Positions 1 to 35,334 of a DNA stretch of 35,334 bases are shown piece by piece. The notes beneath the pieces are model-generated. The model did no database searches. It was not told where the DNA came from and worked only from the letters and a program-made list of their open reading frames with translations. Every line of letters begins with the position of its first letter. Position 1 is the first letter of the stretch. The DNA comes from a virus (taxonomy: Duplodnaviria; Heunggongvirae; Uroviricota; Caudoviricetes). A program made the position numbers and the translations under genes. The stretch is from the IMG/VR virus record IMGVR_UViG_2713896776_000008, one strand, 5' to 3'.

Positions 1-330
1 TCAGTAACCAAACAACGCCCATTTTAGTAGTGCATCTGCATCATTCTTCAAACTTCCAAGGTCTTTTCCTGGTGAAATTGTTGCCGCTACACCAAGCGCA
101 TTAAGTCGAAGCTGTGCCTGATGGAATCGACTCTCTTGCTGTAGGCCCAGAATTTCATTTTTATTCGCGACAGCATAACGCTGAATGGCTGACTTCGATA
201 CGCTGTAACCTTTATCGGCTAACCAGAGCGAGAGCCATTCATAACCGGTGAAGTTTGTGCGCGATAATTCGCTATGAAGCTCGGCACGAACATCCTCTGG
301 CAGTTTATCAATATTGCTTGGTCTGGCCAT
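1..330 (-). CDS. DUF3486-like protein, short paralogue of the Mu gp27-like putative small terminase subunit (N-terminal DNA-binding part)
   Basis: ATG at 330 with AGGAGG 5-6 nt upstream; MARPSNIDKLPEDVRAELHSEL...GYEWLSLWLADKGYSVSKSAIQRY parallels the N-terminus of the 13282-13830 product (MARRSTIEKLPEDVRRWLERAL...GYNELESLLREQGYVISKSAIHRY). Stop at window position 1-3. Confidence 0.6.
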   Translation of the reverse strand: MARPSNIDKLPEDVRAELHSELSRTNFTGYEWLSLWLADKGYSVSKSAIQRYAVANKNEILGLQQESRFHQAQLRLNALGVAATISPGKDLGSLKNDADALLKWALFGY

Positions 331-349
331 CTGTCCTCCTATAAATAGC

Positions 350-739
350 TTAGCTATTTTCCACCTTCTCTGAATCAGAGTCACCATCAAACAGTTTGCC
401 CTGCATCCGATCCAATTCTTCTTTTCTGACCCGCTTCACCACGCTGTAAACCCACTGTAGTGAAACACCGAATTTGCGGGCCAGTTCGTGATGGTTGCGT
501 CCGTCAAACTCCAGGAATATTTCCCGGTCGCGCTGACTGACCTTCCAGACCATGCCCATCGGAAAATAGACGTTTTGCCCACCCCAGACCTGCATCATGC
601 GGTTCGCGACGGCCTGACCAATCTGGTCGGCAACTGCGGGTTCGATATCAATAATCTCGCGGACGGTCTCAGAGGTATGCTGTGCCAGTTCTACCAACAG
701 TTCCGGCCCTTTACTACGAAACTGATTCAGGTCGCTCAT
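350..739 (-). CDS. mor: Mor/C-family transcriptional activator (middle/late activator), 129 aa
   Basis: ATG at 739 preceded by GGGAGTGA; GGQxVYxP...GRNhhELarkfGVS...VYsvvKRvR pattern typical of the Mor family; position downstream of gemA-like gene as in Mu. Confidence 0.8.
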   Translation of the reverse strand: MSDLNQFRSKGPELLVELAQHTSETVREIIDIEPAVADQIGQAVANRMMQVWGGQNVYFPMGMVWKVSQRDREIFLEFDGRNHHELARKFGVSLQWVYSVVKRVRKEELDRMQGKLFDGDSDSEKVENS

Positions 740-8697: not shown

Positions 8698-9636
8698 ATG
8701 CGTAAGATGTTTTTGGTCTTAGCTCTGTCATTGCTGGTCGGTTGTGATAGTGGATCAGATGGTGTATCGGATTCTCCTTCTACTCCGTCCGTAGAATTCA
8801 ATGTAAAAACGGACGATTTGACTGTAAACAAGCTGTTGCCTGCTATCAAAAATCTACTGCCAGGGTTAAATCGGTACGCAGATCAGTTCGAAAATATTCA
8901 CGTTGAGCAAAATCATTGGCTCACTATCGTGTTTCATGTTCCCGAAAATGCAAACATACCCGCAGATTATCTCTCTCAGGGGAATAATTGCTTCATCGAG
9001 ATCAATAAAGAAGGTACAGCTATAAAAGTGCCTAAAAGAGCCTGTAAATCCGTTGCCCTAGATAGAGTTGTGCAGGATTTAGATAGCGACTATTGGTTCT
9101 ATTTCAATGCCGACGAATTAACCTATGTGCCGTATGATTTTGCAAAGTTAAACGACAAACAACGTGTAGATATTGGTGTCGCATATCTAAAAAAAATGTG
9201 GGATATCGTGCAGATGGTTAAGCAAAAAACAGACTGGCAACCAGATGATTTTCCTAACTACGCCAGATTGTTCAGGCAACTGGAGAGTGAGGGTAAGCAG
9301 TTTGTAATGGAGGGGGATATGTTCCCAGCTTATGGCTCTTGCAGGATGGCGGGGGCTAACGCTCAGCAATGGTGGTCTACACAAATTAGCTCACTTAAAG
9401 ATTTATCTTCAAATGACCCTCAACGAGCGGGTTCCGCTTTAAAACAAATTAAACGTCAATATGACTCATATCATGAAAGCGCTGTGAGTTGTGCAAAAGA
9501 AATCAGGCAAGCTCCACCAGTAGAGAAAAAAATGGAGGTGTTACCCCCTACGTCAGACAATAAACCTCCAAGAGCGGGCTGTCTGATGATATTTACACCT
9601 GATGACAAGACTAGCTGGAGCTGCCCGATAAACTGA
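8698..9636 (+). CDS. lipoprotein (312 aa), lipobox LLVGC with Asp at +2, AT-rich cargo gene
   Basis: MRKMFLVLALSLLVGC|DSG signal peptide and lipobox; AAGGA RBS; local GC visibly lower than flanking phage genes; several Cys pairs in mature part. Confidence 0.7.
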   Translation: MRKMFLVLALSLLVGCDSGSDGVSDSPSTPSVEFNVKTDDLTVNKLLPAIKNLLPGLNRYADQFENIHVEQNHWLTIVFHVPENANIPADYLSQGNNCFIEINKEGTAIKVPKRACKSVALDRVVQDLDSDYWFYFNADELTYVPYDFAKLNDKQRVDIGVAYLKKMWDIVQMVKQKTDWQPDDFPNYARLFRQLESEGKQFVMEGDMFPAYGSCRMAGANAQQWWSTQISSLKDLSSNDPQRAGSALKQIKRQYDSYHESAVSCAKEIRQAPPVEKKMEVLPPTSDNKPPRAGCLMIFTPDDKTSWSCPIN

Positions 9637-9638
9637 CA

Positions 9639-9896
9639 TTAGCAAGGCTTTCTGCTTTGGGGATTGGCGCTGATGGTCAGTCTTATCTCTCCAATGAGTA
9701 TTCCTTTCAGCTTATTTTCAGGGAGCATTCGTGGCGTTTTCTCCACCTGCTCAAGCGCGGCCTGCATCTCTCTTATTGCCTCTGCCAGATTGTCGGCATT
9801 GACGCTAAGTGTGTAGATTTTTGCTGCAGTTTCATGCTCATCGCAGGTTATTCCCATTAAGTATGAGTGTTTGGGTTTATTAGTTGCTGAACTCAT
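9639..9896 (-). CDS. hypothetical 85-aa protein co-transcribed downstream of dam-like gene
   Basis: ATG at 9896 with AAGGAG upstream, 12 nt after methyltransferase stop; stop lies 2 bp from lipoprotein stop (convergent). Confidence 0.5.
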   Translation of the reverse strand: MSSATNKPKHSYLMGITCDEHETAAKIYTLSVNADNLAEAIREMQAALEQVEKTPRMLPENKLKGILIGEIRLTISANPQSRKPC

Positions 9897-9908
9897 GCGT
9901 TTCTCCTT

Positions 9909-10673
9909 TCAGAAATTGCATATCACAAGTTCCTGGCGCGGTGATGACTTACCCGACAGGCTGTAGTTGATGCAAACGGTCTGGATGTTGAGGCCTTTGA
10001 AAGCCTGCCTCATCTCTGGGATATCGTTCACCGATATAATCATTTTCCCTTTGATACTCCGCGCCAGTTCCGACATGTGGATATAGTTCCCTATTGGAAA
10101 ATCCACCCCATAGCCCTCTGTTCCCCAGTACGGTGGATCACAGTAGAACAGCGTATGCGGGCGATCATAACGCTCTATGCATTGGTGCCAGTCCAGATGC
10201 TCTATCAGCGTTCTGGACAGGCGCAGGTGTGCCATCGACAGTTCTTCTTCGATGCGCAGGAGGTTAAAGCGCGGCGCACTTGTGGTGGAGGTTCCGAACG
10301 AGTGATCGGCCACCTTGCCGCCAAACGCCTGTTTCTGCAGGTAGTAGAACCGGGCCGCCCGCTGAATGTCGGTGAGCGTTTCTTCCGGCGTATCCTGCAA
10401 CCATTTATAAATCTGACGGCTGACCAGCGCCCATTTGAACTGGCGAACAAATTCTTCCAGATGATGCTTGACCACCCGATAGAGGTTCACCAGCTCCCCG
10501 TTGATATCGTTAATGACTTCGGTCTTGCTGGGCGTCTTGAGAAAATAGAGCGCAGCTGCCCCGCAGAACGGCTCCACATAGCAGGTATGGGCCGGAAACA
10601 GCGGCAGAATATGTTTAGCCAGACGACGTTTGCCGCCAATCCATGGGACGATGGGTAAAGATTGTTCTTTCAT
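9909..10673 (-). CDS. Dam-like N6-adenine DNA methyltransferase (D12 class), orphan
   Basis: N-terminal PWIGGKRR...FCGAAALYF (AdoMet motif) and DPPY catalytic motif; ATG at 10673 (ORF track begins at TTG 10697). Confidence 0.8.
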   Translation of the reverse strand: MKEQSLPIVPWIGGKRRLAKHILPLFPAHTCYVEPFCGAAALYFLKTPSKTEVINDINGELVNLYRVVKHHLEEFVRQFKWALVSRQIYKWLQDTPEETLTDIQRAARFYYLQKQAFGGKVADHSFGTSTTSAPRFNLLRIEEELSMAHLRLSRTLIEHLDWHQCIERYDRPHTLFYCDPPYWGTEGYGVDFPIGNYIHMSELARSIKGKMIISVNDIPEMRQAFKGLNIQTVCINYSLSGKSSPRQELVICNF

Positions 10674-10714
10674 TATCCGTAAGCCTTTTGCAATCAATGA
10701 AAATATGGCAGGCT

Positions 10715-10737
10715 AGTCAGGTCTCGCGAGACTGACT
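10715..10737. promoter_or_regulatory. near-perfect palindrome AGTCAGGTCTCG/CGAGACTGACT in dam-holin divergent intergenic region
   Basis: Read directly; lies between divergent methyltransferase and lysis operon starts. Confidence 0.3.
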
Positions 10738-10776
10738 GAACCCTGGTCGGCTCACAGTGCATACCTGTGGGTTGAT

Positions 10777-10808
10777 GACCAGCCTGGTGTTACAGCACCG
10801 GGCTGGTC
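10777..10808. promoter_or_regulatory. inverted repeat GACCAGCCTGGTG-N6-CACCGGGCTGGTC
   Basis: 12/13 arm complementarity, 6-nt spacer, in the same divergent intergenic region. Confidence 0.3.
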
Positions 10809-12981: not shown

Positions 12982-13285
12982 TATCGCCCGCGTGCGCCGG
13001 GAATCCCTGCGCTGGAGTCTGCTGGTTGCTCTGAACAAAACCCGCCCCTACACCGCCAGCGAGACGCTGCTGCTGGACGTGTCCCGCGCCATATACCCGG
13101 ACACCACGCCGCTGGAGCTGCGCCGTGAGCTGGATTATCTGGCTGACCGCAAGATGGTTGATCTGGAGAAAAAGCCCTCCGGCGACTGGTTTGCTGACCT
13201 GACACGCCTCGGCGTTGACCTGGTGGAATACACCGTGGAATGCGGCCCCGGTATCGCCCGCCCGGAAAAGTACTGGAGTGAATGA
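12974..13285 (+). CDS. hypothetical protein (Mu gp26-position gene)
   Basis: ATG at 12974 with AGGAGG upstream; overlaps neighbours; 103 aa. Confidence 0.45.
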   Translation: MVDIARVRRESLRWSLLVALNKTRPYTASETLLLDVSRAIYPDTTPLELRRELDYLADRKMVDLEKKPSGDWFADLTRLGVDLVEYTVECGPGIARPEKYWSE

Positions 13286-13830
13286 TGGCCAGACGCAGCA
13301 CGATAGAAAAGCTGCCGGAAGACGTGCGTCGCTGGCTTGAGCGGGCGCTGACTGAATCCGGCTTCAGCGGGTATAACGAGCTGGAGTCCCTGCTGCGTGA
13401 GCAGGGTTATGTCATCAGCAAATCGGCTATCCATCGCTATGGCCAGAAGATTGAGCGCCGCTATGGCGCTATCCGTGCAGCCACTGAAGCGGCCCGGATG
13501 CTGACCGAAGGTGCGGCTGACGATCAGGATGCACGTTCGGAGGCGGTGATCGCCCTGATTCAGACCGAGCTGTTCGAGAGCATCGTCCAGCTGCAGGAAG
13601 CGGAAGAAGGCGAAGTCGACCCCAAAGAGCGCGTGGCGCTGTTGTCGAAGGTGGCAAAGAACGTGGCCACGCTGTCCCGCGCTTCCGTCAACCTCAAGAA
13701 GTTCCAGTCTGAAGTCCGGGCCAGAGCGCAGCAGGCGGCCAGCAACGCCGAGAAAATTGCCCGTAAGGGTGGACTGTCAACCGATGCGGTACAGGCGCTG
13801 CGTCGTGAAATTCTGGGGATTGCCTCATGA
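13282..13830 (+). CDS. DUF3486 protein (Mu gp27-like, putative small terminase subunit)
   Basis: MARRSTIEKLPEDVRRWLERALTESGFSGY...SKSAIHRYGQ signature; immediately upstream of large terminase. Confidence 0.7.
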   Translation: MMARRSTIEKLPEDVRRWLERALTESGFSGYNELESLLREQGYVISKSAIHRYGQKIERRYGAIRAATEAARMLTEGAADDQDARSEAVIALIQTELFESIVQLQEAEEGEVDPKERVALLSKVAKNVATLSRASVNLKKFQSEVRARAQQAASNAEKIARKGGLSTDAVQALRREILGIAS

Positions 13831-15350
13831 GCCAGCTTGCTCCTGTTTTGCCTGACACCTCGGCGCTGGATATCCCCGCCGTTCTGATGCCCTACCAGCA
13901 GCGCTGGGTGGCTGACACGTCTCCGCTCAAGGTGATTGAGAAGAGCCGCCGAACCGGTATCACCTGGGCTGAGGCGTCCGATGACGTGCTGACCGCAGCC
14001 TCTTCAGCCCCTGCGGGTGGGATGAACGTGTATTACATCGCCTATAACCAGGACATGACCGTCGAATATATCCAGGCGTGTGCGATGTGGGCGCGGGCAT
14101 TCAACTATGCCGCCAGTGAAATCGAAGAGGGTTTCTGGGAAGAGGACGAAGACGACAAGCATATCAAGACCTACACCATCAAATTCCCTGACTCCGGCTT
14201 CCGCGTTGTCGCGCTCTCCAGCCGTCCGTCTAACCTGCGTGGCCGTCAGGGCATCATCGTTATCGACGAAGCGGCGTTCCATGAGCAACTGGACGAACTG
14301 CTGAAGGCGGCGCTGGCGATGCTTATCTGGGGCGGTAAAGTGCGCGTTATCTCCACCCATGACGGTGACGATAACCCGTTCAATACGCTTATCGGTGATA
14401 TCCGGGCCGGGCGTCAGGGGGGCAGCGTACATCGCATTACTTTTCAGGAGGCTGTGTCCCAAGGGCTGTTCCACCGCGTCTGCCTGCGTACCGGGAAAGA
14501 ATGGTCGGAAGCATCCGAGCAGGCGTGGATGGCATCGGTGTACAAATTCTACGGTGCCGGTGCATCGGAGGAGCTTGACTGTGTTCCGGCCAACGGTGGC
14601 GGAGCCTGGCTGTCCCGCGCCCTGATTGAGTCCCGTATGTCGGTTGGCACGCCGGTGTTGCGTCTGACCTGCCCGGAGGGTTACGAGCTGAAGCCCGATG
14701 ATGTCCGCTGGAGCGAGACGCAGGAGTGGCTTGATACACATCTGAAACCGTTGCTGGAGGCGCTCCCCGCTGACGCACGTTCTTTCCTGGGTCGCGACTT
14801 TGGCCGCAGCGGTGACCTGTCGGTGGACTATCCCCTGCTGCAGGAGAAGAACCTGGTTCGCCGCGTGCCGTTCGTGCTGGAGCTGCGCAACGTGCCGTTC
14901 AAACAGCAGGAGCAAATCGCCTGGTACCTGATGGACGGCCTGCCAAACCTGATAGGCGCGGCGCTTGATGCCCGTGGTAACGGCTCTTACCTCGCCGAAT
15001 ACGCCATGCAGCGCTACGGCTCCAGCCGGGTTAAGCAGGTGATGCCAACTGAAAACTGGTATCGCGAGCATATGCCGCCGGTCAAGGCTGCGCTGGAAGA
15101 TGGCAACCTGGTGGATTTACCGAAGGATGAAGATACGCTGGATGACCTGCGGGCCGTTCAGGTGGTAAACGGCGTTCCCCGCGTGCCGGAACAGCGCTCA
15201 AAAGCGAAGTCTGACAGTGGCAAGCGTCACGGGGATTCAGCCATCGCACTGGCGCTGGCGTACTTCGCCAGTCGTGAAATTAACAAAGGGCCGGTGAAGG
15301 CAAGCTCACGCCGTCGTCGTCAGGCGGCCCGTATGCTGGAGGATTACTGA
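13827..15350 (+). CDS. terminase large subunit (Mu gp28-like)
   Basis: 507 aa; ATPase-like GIIVIDEAAFH (Walker B-like) and nuclease-type C-terminal region; gene order gp27-gp28-portal. Confidence 0.8.
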   Translation: MSQLAPVLPDTSALDIPAVLMPYQQRWVADTSPLKVIEKSRRTGITWAEASDDVLTAASSAPAGGMNVYYIAYNQDMTVEYIQACAMWARAFNYAASEIEEGFWEEDEDDKHIKTYTIKFPDSGFRVVALSSRPSNLRGRQGIIVIDEAAFHEQLDELLKAALAMLIWGGKVRVISTHDGDDNPFNTLIGDIRAGRQGGSVHRITFQEAVSQGLFHRVCLRTGKEWSEASEQAWMASVYKFYGAGASEELDCVPANGGGAWLSRALIESRMSVGTPVLRLTCPEGYELKPDDVRWSETQEWLDTHLKPLLEALPADARSFLGRDFGRSGDLSVDYPLLQEKNLVRRVPFVLELRNVPFKQQEQIAWYLMDGLPNLIGAALDARGNGSYLAEYAMQRYGSSRVKQVMPTENWYREHMPPVKAALEDGNLVDLPKDEDTLDDLRAVQVVNGVPRVPEQRSKAKSDSGKRHGDSAIALALAYFASREINKGPVKASSRRRRQAARMLEDY

Positions 15351-34752: not shown

Positions 34753-35334
34753 ATGGCCGTTATTGGTTATATCCGCGTATCAACAATCGACCAGAACAGC
34801 GATTTGCAGCGTAATGCACTCACAAGCGCAAACTGTGACCGCATTTTTGAAGACCGTATGAGTGGAAAAGTTGCCAGTCGCCCTGGTCTTAAAGGCGCTT
34901 TAAAGTGCATTAATAGCGGAGACACCCTGGTAGTGTGGAAACTGGACAGGCTGGGACGTAGCGTTAAGAACCTGATTGCACTCATATCAGAGTTACATGA
35001 ACGTGGTGCCCACTTCCGCTCTTTAACAGACAGTATTGATACCAGCACTGCCATGGGGCGCTTCTTTTTCCATGTAATGTCGGCATTGGCGGAGATGGAG
35101 CGCGAGCTAATTGTCGAACGGACACTGGCCGGGCTGGCAGCAGCCAGAGCACAGGGACGCGTAGGTGGAAGGCCCAACGCATTAAAAACCCATGAGCGAG
35201 AGCAGATTGGGCGGCTATTGACGAAGGGGCACACCCGCCAGCAGCTGGCAATTATCTACGGTGTAGGGTTATCGACGCTTTACCGATACTTTCCGGTGGA
35301 TGGTCATAGGAAGGATAACGCAGCAGGAATGTAA
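34753..35334 (+). CDS. gin: Gin/Hin/Pin-family serine DNA invertase
   Basis: N-terminal resolvase catalytic region GYIRVSTIDQNSDLQRNAL with active-site Ser, DRLGRS motif, C-terminal HTH; AGGAGG RBS; adjacent to invertible segment. Confidence 0.9.
   Translation: MAVIGYIRVSTIDQNSDLQRNALTSANCDRIFEDRMSGKVASRPGLKGALKCINSGDTLVVWKLDRLGRSVKNLIALISELHERGAHFRSLTDSIDTSTAMGRFFFHVMSALAEMERELIVERTLAGLAAARAQGRVGGRPNALKTHEREQIGRLLTKGHTRQQLAIIYGVGLSTLYRYFPVDGHRKDNAAGM

What the first reader, a model, noticed from the sequence alone, without database searches (positions are those of the whole stretch)
1..330. Truncated DUF3486 paralogue at the distal end of the early operon
The phage carries the gp27-like putative small terminase gene at 13282-13830 and also a 109-aa paralogue matching only its N-terminal part, with its own strong SD, downstream of mor on the opposite strand. 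Could be an early regulator derived from the small terminase DNA-binding domain, or a modulator of packaging.
Basis: seen in the sequence. Interest (0 to 1): 0.45.

Follow-up and report, generated by a model that had tools for sequence, protein, structure and literature searches.

The report
Short terminase-like DNA-binding gene beside phage end
A Mu-like prophage carries, next to its DNA-packaging end, a small conserved gene that copies only the DNA-binding head of the phage's small terminase; it is a real but optional and uncharacterised gene, probably an end- or pac-site-binding protein rather than a broken terminase.

Summary
Window 4-330 (- strand, stop at 1-3) encodes a 109-aa protein. 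Its first ~55-64 residues are specifically homologous to the N-terminal helix-turn-helix domain of the phage's own Gp27/DUF3486 small terminase (13282-13830).

"Truncated" is misleading. The protein belongs to a wide, old family of 100-120-aa proteins under purifying selection. These carry their own conserved C-terminal helical module (RLRCLEvAA...A..LL.W), which shows no detectable homology to the rest of Gp27.

In about ten lineages with under 50% identity (Escherichia/Klebsiella, Serratia, Proteus, Symbiopectobacterium, Iodobacter, metagenomes), the gene is always the last one before a phage end. It points towards that end and is followed by a hairpin terminator, usually GemA-Mor-short-END. 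In a rearranged (KS10-like) phage group the order is F-G-short-END.

That end is the one reported to carry pac in BcepMu-like phages. The gene is optional: BcepMu lacks it, as do about 99% of related E. coli prophages.

The best reading is a dimeric, terminase-derived DNA-binding protein that acts on the adjacent subterminal or pac region without recruiting the large terminase. That function is inferred, not shown. Interest is moderate to low: a new variant of a known kind.

The parts
1..330 (-). CDS of the short Gp27-like protein (109 aa; stop codon at 1-3, ATG at 328-330). It is identical to RefSeq WP_023304082.1, 'phage protein Gp27 family protein'.
   Evidence: ORF list and sequence; RefSeq annotation of the 100%-identical E. 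coli locus; pN 0.09-0.22 against pS 0.78-0.98 compared with the Symbiopectobacterium and Serratia orthologues.
157..330 (-). N-terminal domain (aa 1-58): a Gp27/TerS-type three-helix, homeodomain-like HTH containing the family motif SKSAIQRYA.
115..156 (-). Variable linker (aa 59-72).
   Evidence: Alignment of 59 family members: this stretch varies in length and is poorly conserved.
4..114 (-). C-terminal family-specific helical module (aa 73-109; consensus RLRCLEvAA...L...A..LL.W; here LRLNALGVAA...LKNDADALLKWALFGY). It is a probable dimerisation or partner-binding hairpin.
   Evidence: Conserved across 59 members, with nearly invariant A82, A98 and W104; no homology to Gp27 residues 60-182 (hhalign probability 0.3%, the same as shuffled controls); no Pfam family; pN/pS as low as in the N-domain. 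The dimerisation role is inferred.
331..349 (-). 19-nt mor-short spacer carrying the AGGAGG Shine-Dalgarno (+ strand 335-340). There is no room for a promoter, so the gene is co-transcribed with mor.
   Evidence: Sequence; no sigma-70-like site on the - strand within or after mor.
350..739 (-). mor (Mor/C-family transcription activator), the gene immediately upstream in the same operon.
   Evidence: PF08765 E 1e-42; RefSeq annotation.
13282..13830 (+). Full-length Gp27/DUF3486 putative small terminase, the parent paralogue. Its stop overlaps the start of the large terminase gene (13827-15350).
   Evidence: PF11985 profile positions 1-173 of 173, E 3e-56; PHROG 426 E 5e-62; Terminase_6N on the next ORF.

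Best explanation
The ORF is a functional but optional gene of BcepMu-like transposable (Mu-like) prophages. It encodes a two-module protein. The N-terminal module is the three-helix HTH that serves as the DNA-binding head of the Gp27/DUF3486 small terminase. The C-terminal module is a family-specific two-helix unit that most likely mediates dimerisation. The protein lacks the TerS body: the central helical or oligomerisation region and the C-terminal GLS...ILGI tail.

It is made as the last cistron of the early operon, coupled to mor. Transcription stops at a hairpin terminator 6 nt after its stop codon, and the phage left end lies about 140 bp away.

Proposed mechanism (inferred): during the early and middle phase the protein binds a TerS-type site in the adjacent subterminal region of the pac-bearing end. 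The conserved dyad-like block TTTCAyATAyTGwAA..AATTrCA is the obvious candidate site. Because the protein cannot form a TerS ring or recruit TerL, it would mark or mask that end. It would thereby tune when, or how accurately, packaging starts, or how the end is used, rather than cut DNA itself.

Shown: homology, architecture, selection, operon position, terminator, invariable adjacency to the end, and dispensability. Inferred: DNA binding, the target site, dimerisation, and the effect on packaging.
For: N-domain homology is specific to Gp27. The TerS body is absent and a distinct conserved C-module is present.

The family is wide. In the exhaustive search, 703 proteins reach E <= 1e-3 (short-family and full-length Gp27 together), and dozens of 100-120-aa cluster representatives match the profile end to end. 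Purifying selection acts on both halves.

The gene is the last one before the phage end and points towards it in every context recovered:
- E. coli/KP12.
- Serratia, with three different host flanks.
- Symbiopectobacterium.
- Proteus and Klebsiella, at 29-45% identity, each with two host flanks.
- Iodobacter and metagenomic loci, with Mor and GemA confirmed by Pfam.
- A different genome arrangement, F-G-short-terminator-END-host (L105, L020, L040).

Phage ends were defined by divergence of host flanks and by TTATCTCA-type repeats. Terminators follow the gene. The pac site of BcepMu-like phages is reported at the left end, which is the regulation/mor side (PMC2920897, citing Summer et al. 2004). 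The recognition-helix motif SKSA(I/V)HRY is shared by short and long forms.
Against: There is no experimental or direct computational evidence of DNA binding or of the target. The conserved subterminal block is equally present in relatives that lack the gene, so it is not specific to carriers.

The N-domains of the short and long proteins of one phage are no more alike than those of different phages: 47, 49 and 40% within a phage against 36-47% across phages. There is therefore no sign of co-evolving specificity.

The gene is dispensable: it is in 6 of 5426 complete E. coli genomes, against about 640 that carry the homologous mor region, and it is absent from BcepMu. The ends of Mu-like genomes are also the usual place for unrelated accessory genes (PMC2920897), so adjacency alone may be permissive rather than functional.

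The structural model is only of moderate confidence (pLDDT 69). In L105 a terminator-like hairpin lies just upstream of the gene, so its timing there is unclear.
Confidence: 0.35

Rival explanations
1. It is a transcription regulator. In this reading a small HTH protein, made right after Mor, modulates the early-to-late switch. By position it corresponds to Mu C, which follows mor in Mu. It might alternatively limit read-through out of the phage end.
For: It is the cistron directly after mor, with a 3-57-nt spacing in all Mor-type contexts. It has an HTH fold like many regulators. These phages have only one Mor/C-family gene.
Against: It is not a Mor/C family member. It is absent from BcepMu and from about 99% of related E. 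coli prophages, which have the same late genes, so it cannot be a required activator. In a second phage group it sits after the head genes F and G rather than after mor, yet is still at the end. No operator-like repeat was found near it apart from the end repeats.
Confidence: 0.25
2. It is an accessory gene ('moron') for competition between phages. As a decoy of the highly conserved TerS DNA-binding head, it would occupy the pac region of related incoming or co-resident Mu-like phages, or of satellites, and so interfere with their packaging.
For: Its distribution is patchy and optional among close relatives, and the module boundary falls just inside the 3' end of mor. Phage ends are known hot spots for accessory genes (PMC2920897). 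The TerS N-domain and its SKSAxHRY helix are very conserved across the family, so one decoy could act broadly. Satellites are known to manipulate packaging through TerS-related proteins (own knowledge; see also bioRxiv 10.1101/2024.04.22.590561, listed but not read).
Against: It has no promoter of its own and lies in the repressed early operon, so it would not be made in a lysogen. It would also compete with the phage's own TerS. There is no hit in PADLOC. Synteny is conserved down to 29% identity, which points to a long-standing phage function rather than a recently traded cargo gene.
Confidence: 0.15
3. It is an accessory transposition factor that binds the subterminal region of one end and helps, or biases, transpososome assembly or end choice.
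For: The gene is always within about 100-170 bp of an end that carries transposase-binding-like repeats, and it is expressed together with the transposition genes.
Against: Its homology is to a packaging protein, not to a transposase domain. Most relatives transpose without it. Nothing found here ties it to the A or B proteins.
Confidence: 0.1
4. It is a non-functional remnant: a truncated duplicate of the small terminase gene that is decaying.
For: It matches only the N-terminal third of Gp27. A few copies elsewhere are frameshifted or truncated (P0006, P0019, L017).
Against: Synonymous sites are saturated while pN is 0.09-0.22, in both halves. A conserved C-module is shared by 59 members at 27-85% identity. 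Length, position, SD and terminator are conserved across Gamma- and Betaproteobacteria.
Confidence: 0.03

Closest known systems
Gp27 / DUF3486 (Pfam PF11985, PHROG 426): the putative small terminase of Mu, BcepMu gp27 and relatives. The window's own copy is at 13282-13830.
   Same: The N-terminal ~55-64 residues are the same HTH domain, including the LP..VR and SKSAxHRY motifs: 54% identity to the phage's own copy, hhalign probability 99.8%.
   Different: The short protein is 109 aa against about 175-185 aa. It lacks the central helical region and the C-terminal GLS...ILGI tail, and has an unrelated conserved C-module. Its gene is not next to the large terminase but is last in the early operon, beside the phage end. 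It is optional, whereas Gp27 is universal in these phages.
Mu C, the late-gene activator encoded just downstream of mor in phage Mu (own knowledge of the Mu map).
   Same: It occupies the same relative position (GemA-Mor-X), is of similar size, and is predicted to bind DNA.
   Different: It has no sequence membership in the Mor/C family PF08765. It is dispensable in most relatives. In some phages it is found after the head genes F and G instead.
N-terminal DNA-binding domains of other small terminases, e.g. phage G20C TerS (PDB 4xvn).
   Different: Fold-level resemblance only (8% identity). The model is of moderate confidence. No ring-forming oligomerisation domain follows the HTH.
PHROG 15000, a 109-position family of phage proteins of unknown function.
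   Same: 54 of 59 short-family members hit it (best E 6e-11), and its profile length equals that of the short protein.
   Different: For the window protein the match covers only the N-terminal HTH (residues 5-57, E 5e-5). No function is known, so it adds no mechanism.
Split head-module genome arrangement of Burkholderia phage KS10 (PMC2628397).
   Same: Relatives L105, L020, L040 and L125 have TerS-TerL-portal-F-(G) running into a phage end, as KS10 does. In three of them the short gene is the last gene before that end.
   Different: The window's phage has the ordinary BcepMu arrangement. In the KS10 gene table shown, gene 1 (the F-like gene) is the first gene at that end, and its TerS is of the D3112 type.

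Membership tests
Pfam PF11985 Phage_Mu_Gp27 / DUF3486 (small terminase of Mu-like phages) | Sequence match to the family profile above the curated gathering score. | tested here: met
   56.5 bits against a cut-off of 28, E 6e-15. All 59 short-family members hit PF11985.
Pfam PF11985 Phage_Mu_Gp27 / DUF3486 (small terminase of Mu-like phages) | Full-length architecture: HTH, central helical region and C-terminal GLS...ILGI tail (profile positions 1-173). | tested here: not met
   Only profile positions 1-53 are matched. hhalign aligns only 66 N-terminal columns. The C-module against Gp27 residues 60-182 gives probability 0.3%, equal to shuffled controls.
Pfam PF11985 Phage_Mu_Gp27 / DUF3486 (small terminase of Mu-like phages) | Gene lies immediately upstream of, and is coupled to, the large terminase gene. 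| tested here: not met
   The short gene follows mor, about 13 kb from terL and on the other strand. The full-length copy at 13282-13830 does meet this feature.
Pfam PF11985 Phage_Mu_Gp27 / DUF3486 (small terminase of Mu-like phages) | pac recognition and stimulation of TerL (terminase function). | not testable with these tools
   This needs biochemistry. To my knowledge it has not been shown experimentally even for Mu gp27.
   Profile search: dozens of 50%-identity cluster representatives match profile positions 1-105. Alignment of 59 members with the window protein as first row.
   For the window protein this was tested through the identical E. coli locus: stop, 6 nt, hairpin with T-run, then the end about 140 bp from the stop. 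The same holds in nine other lineages.
Mor/C family of Mu transcription activators (PF08765) | Sequence membership in PF08765. | tested here: not met
   There is no PF08765 hit for the short protein at E <= 0.1, whereas the upstream gene hits at 1e-42.
Mor/C family of Mu transcription activators (PF08765) | Required for late transcription. | tested here: not met
   Indirect evidence only: the gene is absent from BcepMu and from about 99% of related E. coli prophages that have homologous late regions.
Anti-phage defence or satellite packaging-interference proteins | Match to a known defence-system protein model, or residence in a satellite or defence island. | tested here: not met
   No PADLOC hit. 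The gene lies inside a complete Mu-like prophage operon.

The most novel reading that the evidence does not exclude
The small terminase of transposable phages has spawned a stand-alone 'pac guardian'. This would be a dimeric copy of the TerS DNA-binding head, made with the transposition genes, that sits on the pac-bearing end during replicative transposition. It would gate access of the real terminase, giving a previously undescribed layer of packaging control. Being encoded right beside its site, it could be moved with the end when genomes are rearranged.
Probability: 0.2. Interest if true: 0.6.

Novelty: new variant of a known kind. Interest (0 to 1): 0.33.

Why it matters
How Mu-like phages choose one end for packaging, and keep terminase away until replicative transposition is finished, is poorly understood. 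Even the role of Gp27 as small terminase rests on position and motifs. A natural stand-alone version of the Gp27 DNA-binding head, always encoded beside the pac-bearing end, offers a handy probe for finding the pac or TerS recognition site. It might also reveal a regulator of packaging initiation. For annotation, it shows that 'phage protein Gp27 family protein' covers two distinct architectures with different genomic roles. If the gene turns out to be merely an optional regulator, the result is of local interest only.

Tried and rejected
1. Internal-deletion idea. A first MAFFT alignment paired the short protein's C-half with the C-terminus of Gp27, and hmmsearch gave weak secondary hits at Gp27 positions ~130-170. 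hhalign of the whole profiles and of the C-parts alone, with 20 column-shuffled controls, shows no signal above chance. Rejected.

2. Concerted evolution of short and long N-domains within a phage, which would indicate shared specificity. Same-phage identities are not higher than cross-phage ones. No support.

4. Family libraries. NCBIfam and PADLOC gave no hit. Pfam on all 59 members gave no family for the C-module.

5. Own promoter. No sigma-70-like site on the gene's strand.

6. Database reach. The word-indexed protein search found only 6 and then 22 relatives.

7. Phage isolates. tblastn with two different family members finds a full-length short copy only in the partial record of Klebsiella phage KP12.

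8. Target-site duplication at the napH/napB insertion could not be read unambiguously. Not pursued.

9. An unannotated copy in the 364-bp left arm of BcepMu: none found.

Full report
**What is there**

The - strand of window 1-330 carries an ORF of 109 codons: ATG at 328-330, stop at 1-3. An AGGAGG Shine-Dalgarno sequence lies 4 nt upstream of the ATG. Only 19 nt separate the ORF from the stop codon of mor (350-739; PF08765, E 1e-42).

The window starts exactly at this stop codon and ends exactly at the stop of a Gin-type invertase gene. It is therefore a provirus cut at gene boundaries, and both phage ends lie outside it.

The first 2300 bases are 100% identical to a prophage of E. coli CFSAN051542, inserted between napH and napB. 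I used that locus (L003) and Klebsiella phage KP12 (L002) to read the flank. The centre of the window is only about 95% identical to any complete E. coli genome, so L003 is a proxy for the left arm only.

The gene map is that of a BcepMu-like transposable phage:
- The early operon lies on the - strand: ner-like, DUF3102, transposase, MuB/ExeA-like, ..., GemA, Mor.
- The repressor, lysis, head and tail genes lie on the + strand.

**Check of the observation**

The full-length Gp27/DUF3486 gene is at 13282-13830. It overlaps the start of the large terminase gene (13827-15350) and matches PF11985 over the whole profile (E 3e-56) and PHROG 426, 'terminase small subunit'.

- BLASTP of the 109-aa protein against it gives 28/52 identities, E 1e-16, restricted to residues 1-52.
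- PF11985 hits the short protein at 56.5 bits (cut-off 28) but only over profile positions 1-53 of 173.
- Generic HTH families score E >= 0.065.

**It is a family, not a stump**

An exhaustive profile search of 1.84 billion cluster representatives found 703 proteins at E <= 1e-3. Dozens of representatives of 100-120 aa match the profile from position 1 to about 105. The 170-190-aa Gp27 proteins match only positions 1 to 55-70.

An alignment of 59 short members at 27-85% identity to the window protein shows three parts:
- the Gp27-type HTH, with LP..VR...L, F..Y, WL..G and SKSAxHRYA;
- a variable linker;
- a conserved C-terminal module, RLRCLEvAA - loop - L...A..LL.W.

Profile-profile comparison with 40 full-length Gp27 proteins aligns only the first 66 columns (probability 99.8%, E 8e-30). 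The C-module alone against Gp27 residues 60-182 scores no better than column-shuffled controls. No Pfam family covers the C-module.

Against the orthologues of Symbiopectobacterium and Serratia, non-synonymous differences are 0.09-0.22 per site, while synonymous sites are saturated at 0.78-0.98. This holds in both halves of the gene. The gene is therefore functional, and its C-terminal part is as constrained as the HTH.

**Genomic context**

In the identical E. coli locus the stop codon is followed after 6 nt by a GC-rich hairpin and a T-run on the gene's strand. About 140 bp from the stop comes the phage end, TGATTAGACGTGAGATAAAT..., with a second TAAGATAAATGGG repeat.

The same order, GemA - Mor - short gene - terminator - end - host DNA, is found in:
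- Serratia marcescens at 69% identity, with three different host flanks;
- Candidatus Symbiopectobacterium at 85%;
- Proteus mirabilis and Klebsiella pneumoniae at 45% and 29%, each with two host flanks;
- Iodobacter (Betaproteobacteria) and several metagenomic or proviral contigs, with Mor and GemA confirmed by Pfam or phmmer.

The points at which copies with different flanks diverge define the ends precisely.

In a second group of relatives the phage end lies directly after the head genes F and G. This split head module was described for Burkholderia phage KS10 (PMC2628397). L125 shows that end without the short gene. In L105, L020 and L040 the short gene is again the last gene, between G and the end: it is bracketed by hairpins and followed by TTATC-type end repeats, and in L105 by host genes as well.

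In about ten lineages and two genome arrangements the gene is thus tied to a phage end rather than to a particular operon.

**The gene is optional**

- BcepMu itself has mor as its last gene and no such ORF in its 364-bp left arm.
- Close E. coli relatives have mor about 160 bp from the same end.
- Only 6 of 5426 complete E. coli genomes carry the gene, while about 640 carry the homologous mor-DUF2786 region.
- Among 50,697 phage records only the partial KP12 record has it.

**What it most likely does**

The HTH of a small terminase is the part that recognises pac. The rest of TerS builds the ring and contacts TerL (general knowledge of small terminases). The short protein keeps the first part, drops the rest, and adds a small helical module that would suit dimerisation.

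For BcepMu-like phages the pac site is reported at the left end, the regulation/mor side (PMC2920897, citing Summer et al. 2004). This matches Mu, whose pac also lies in its left end (own knowledge). That is the end next to which the gene sits.

Immediately after the terminator, 85-110 bp inside the end, all enterobacterial and Iodobacter relatives share the block TTTCAyATAyTGwAA..AATTrCA, which is partly dyad-symmetric.

I therefore propose that the protein binds a TerS-type site in this subterminal region during the early and middle phase. Unable to recruit TerL, it would mark or mask the pac end, tuning the onset or precision of packaging or the use of that end.

This is inference, and several observations count against it:
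- the conserved block is also present in phages without the gene;
- short and long N-domains of one phage are not specially similar;
- phage ends are the usual place for accessory genes (PMC2920897);
- most relatives do without the gene.

I put this model at about 0.35.

**Rivals**

- A transcriptional modulator occupying the position that C has in Mu (0.25). An essential activator is excluded by the gene's distribution, and the protein is not a Mor/C family member.
- A decoy used in competition with related phages (0.15). There is no own promoter and no PADLOC hit.
- An accessory transposition factor (0.1).
- A decaying remnant (0.03), contradicted.

**Comparison with what is known, and novelty**

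The N-domain is a member of PF11985. The protein as a whole fails the family's architecture and synteny criteria, so it should not be called a small terminase.

RefSeq already labels it 'phage protein Gp27 family protein', and PHROG 15000 may be a related short family of unknown function. I found no paper that mentions a short paralogue; 'DUF3486' occurs in a single paper of the library. I rate it a new variant of a known kind: a stand-alone Gp27 DNA-binding head with its own C-module and a fixed position beside the end.

Interest is moderate to low (0.33). It would rise if binding to pac and an effect on packaging were shown.

Noticed in passing
window 1-3 and 35329-35334: The window begins exactly at the stop codon of the short gene and ends exactly at the stop codon of a Gin/Cin-type invertase. 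It is a provirus trimmed at gene boundaries, and neither phage end is inside it. Several IMG/VR relatives are trimmed the same way.
   Followed up: yes
L105 4840-10470; L020; L040; L125 (last 200 nt): A group of BcepMu-like relatives has its phage end directly after the head genes TerS-TerL-portal-F-G. This split head module was reported as unique to Burkholderia phage KS10 in 2008, but it appears to be common in proviral and metagenomic contigs.
   Followed up: partly
L003 300-335 (about 30-65 nt left of window position 1) and the equivalent positions in L004, L006, L010, L100, L102, L018: A conserved subterminal block, TTTCAyATAyTGwAA..AATTrCA, lies right after the early-operon terminator, 85-110 bp inside the left end. 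It is present whether or not the short gene is there. It is a candidate pac, host-factor or accessory transposase site.
   Followed up: partly
NZ_CP132021.1 (40,540-bp record) and NZ_CP132020.1 235-564, E. coli JCH8249: The same phage appears as a separate 40.5-kb 'plasmid' record and also at the very start of the chromosome record. This is either an assembly artefact or free or replicating phage DNA in the sequenced culture.
   Followed up: no
P0006 (Erwinia tracheiphila, 97 aa), L017 8146-8476, P0019 (51 aa), P0001 (118 aa): Some copies of the short gene are frameshifted, truncated, or extended by read-through of the stop codon. This suggests occasional decay in certain hosts.
   Followed up: no
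L003 220-232 and 35700-35716 (napH/napB junctions): The prophage sits exactly at the overlapping napH stop and napB start (ATGA). The expected 5-bp target duplication cannot be read unambiguously, because both phage termini begin with TGAT/ATCA-like bases.
   Followed up: partly
L105 9955-9977 and 10325-10345: In the F-G-short-END arrangement the short gene is bracketed by two terminator-like hairpins, and no sigma-70-like promoter was found. How it is expressed there is unclear.
   Followed up: partly
window 350-373 (3' end of mor): Similarity to relatives that lack the short gene begins only at window position 357-381, inside the last codons of mor. The exchanged module therefore includes the Mor C-terminal tail (ours ends ...DGDSDSEKVENS).
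   Followed up: no
window ~9200-10800 (L003 9595-11175): A Dam-type adenine methylase gene (- strand) and a DUF2441 gene lie between the repressor region and the lysis genes. In relatives this stretch matches less completely than the flanking regions.
   Followed up: no
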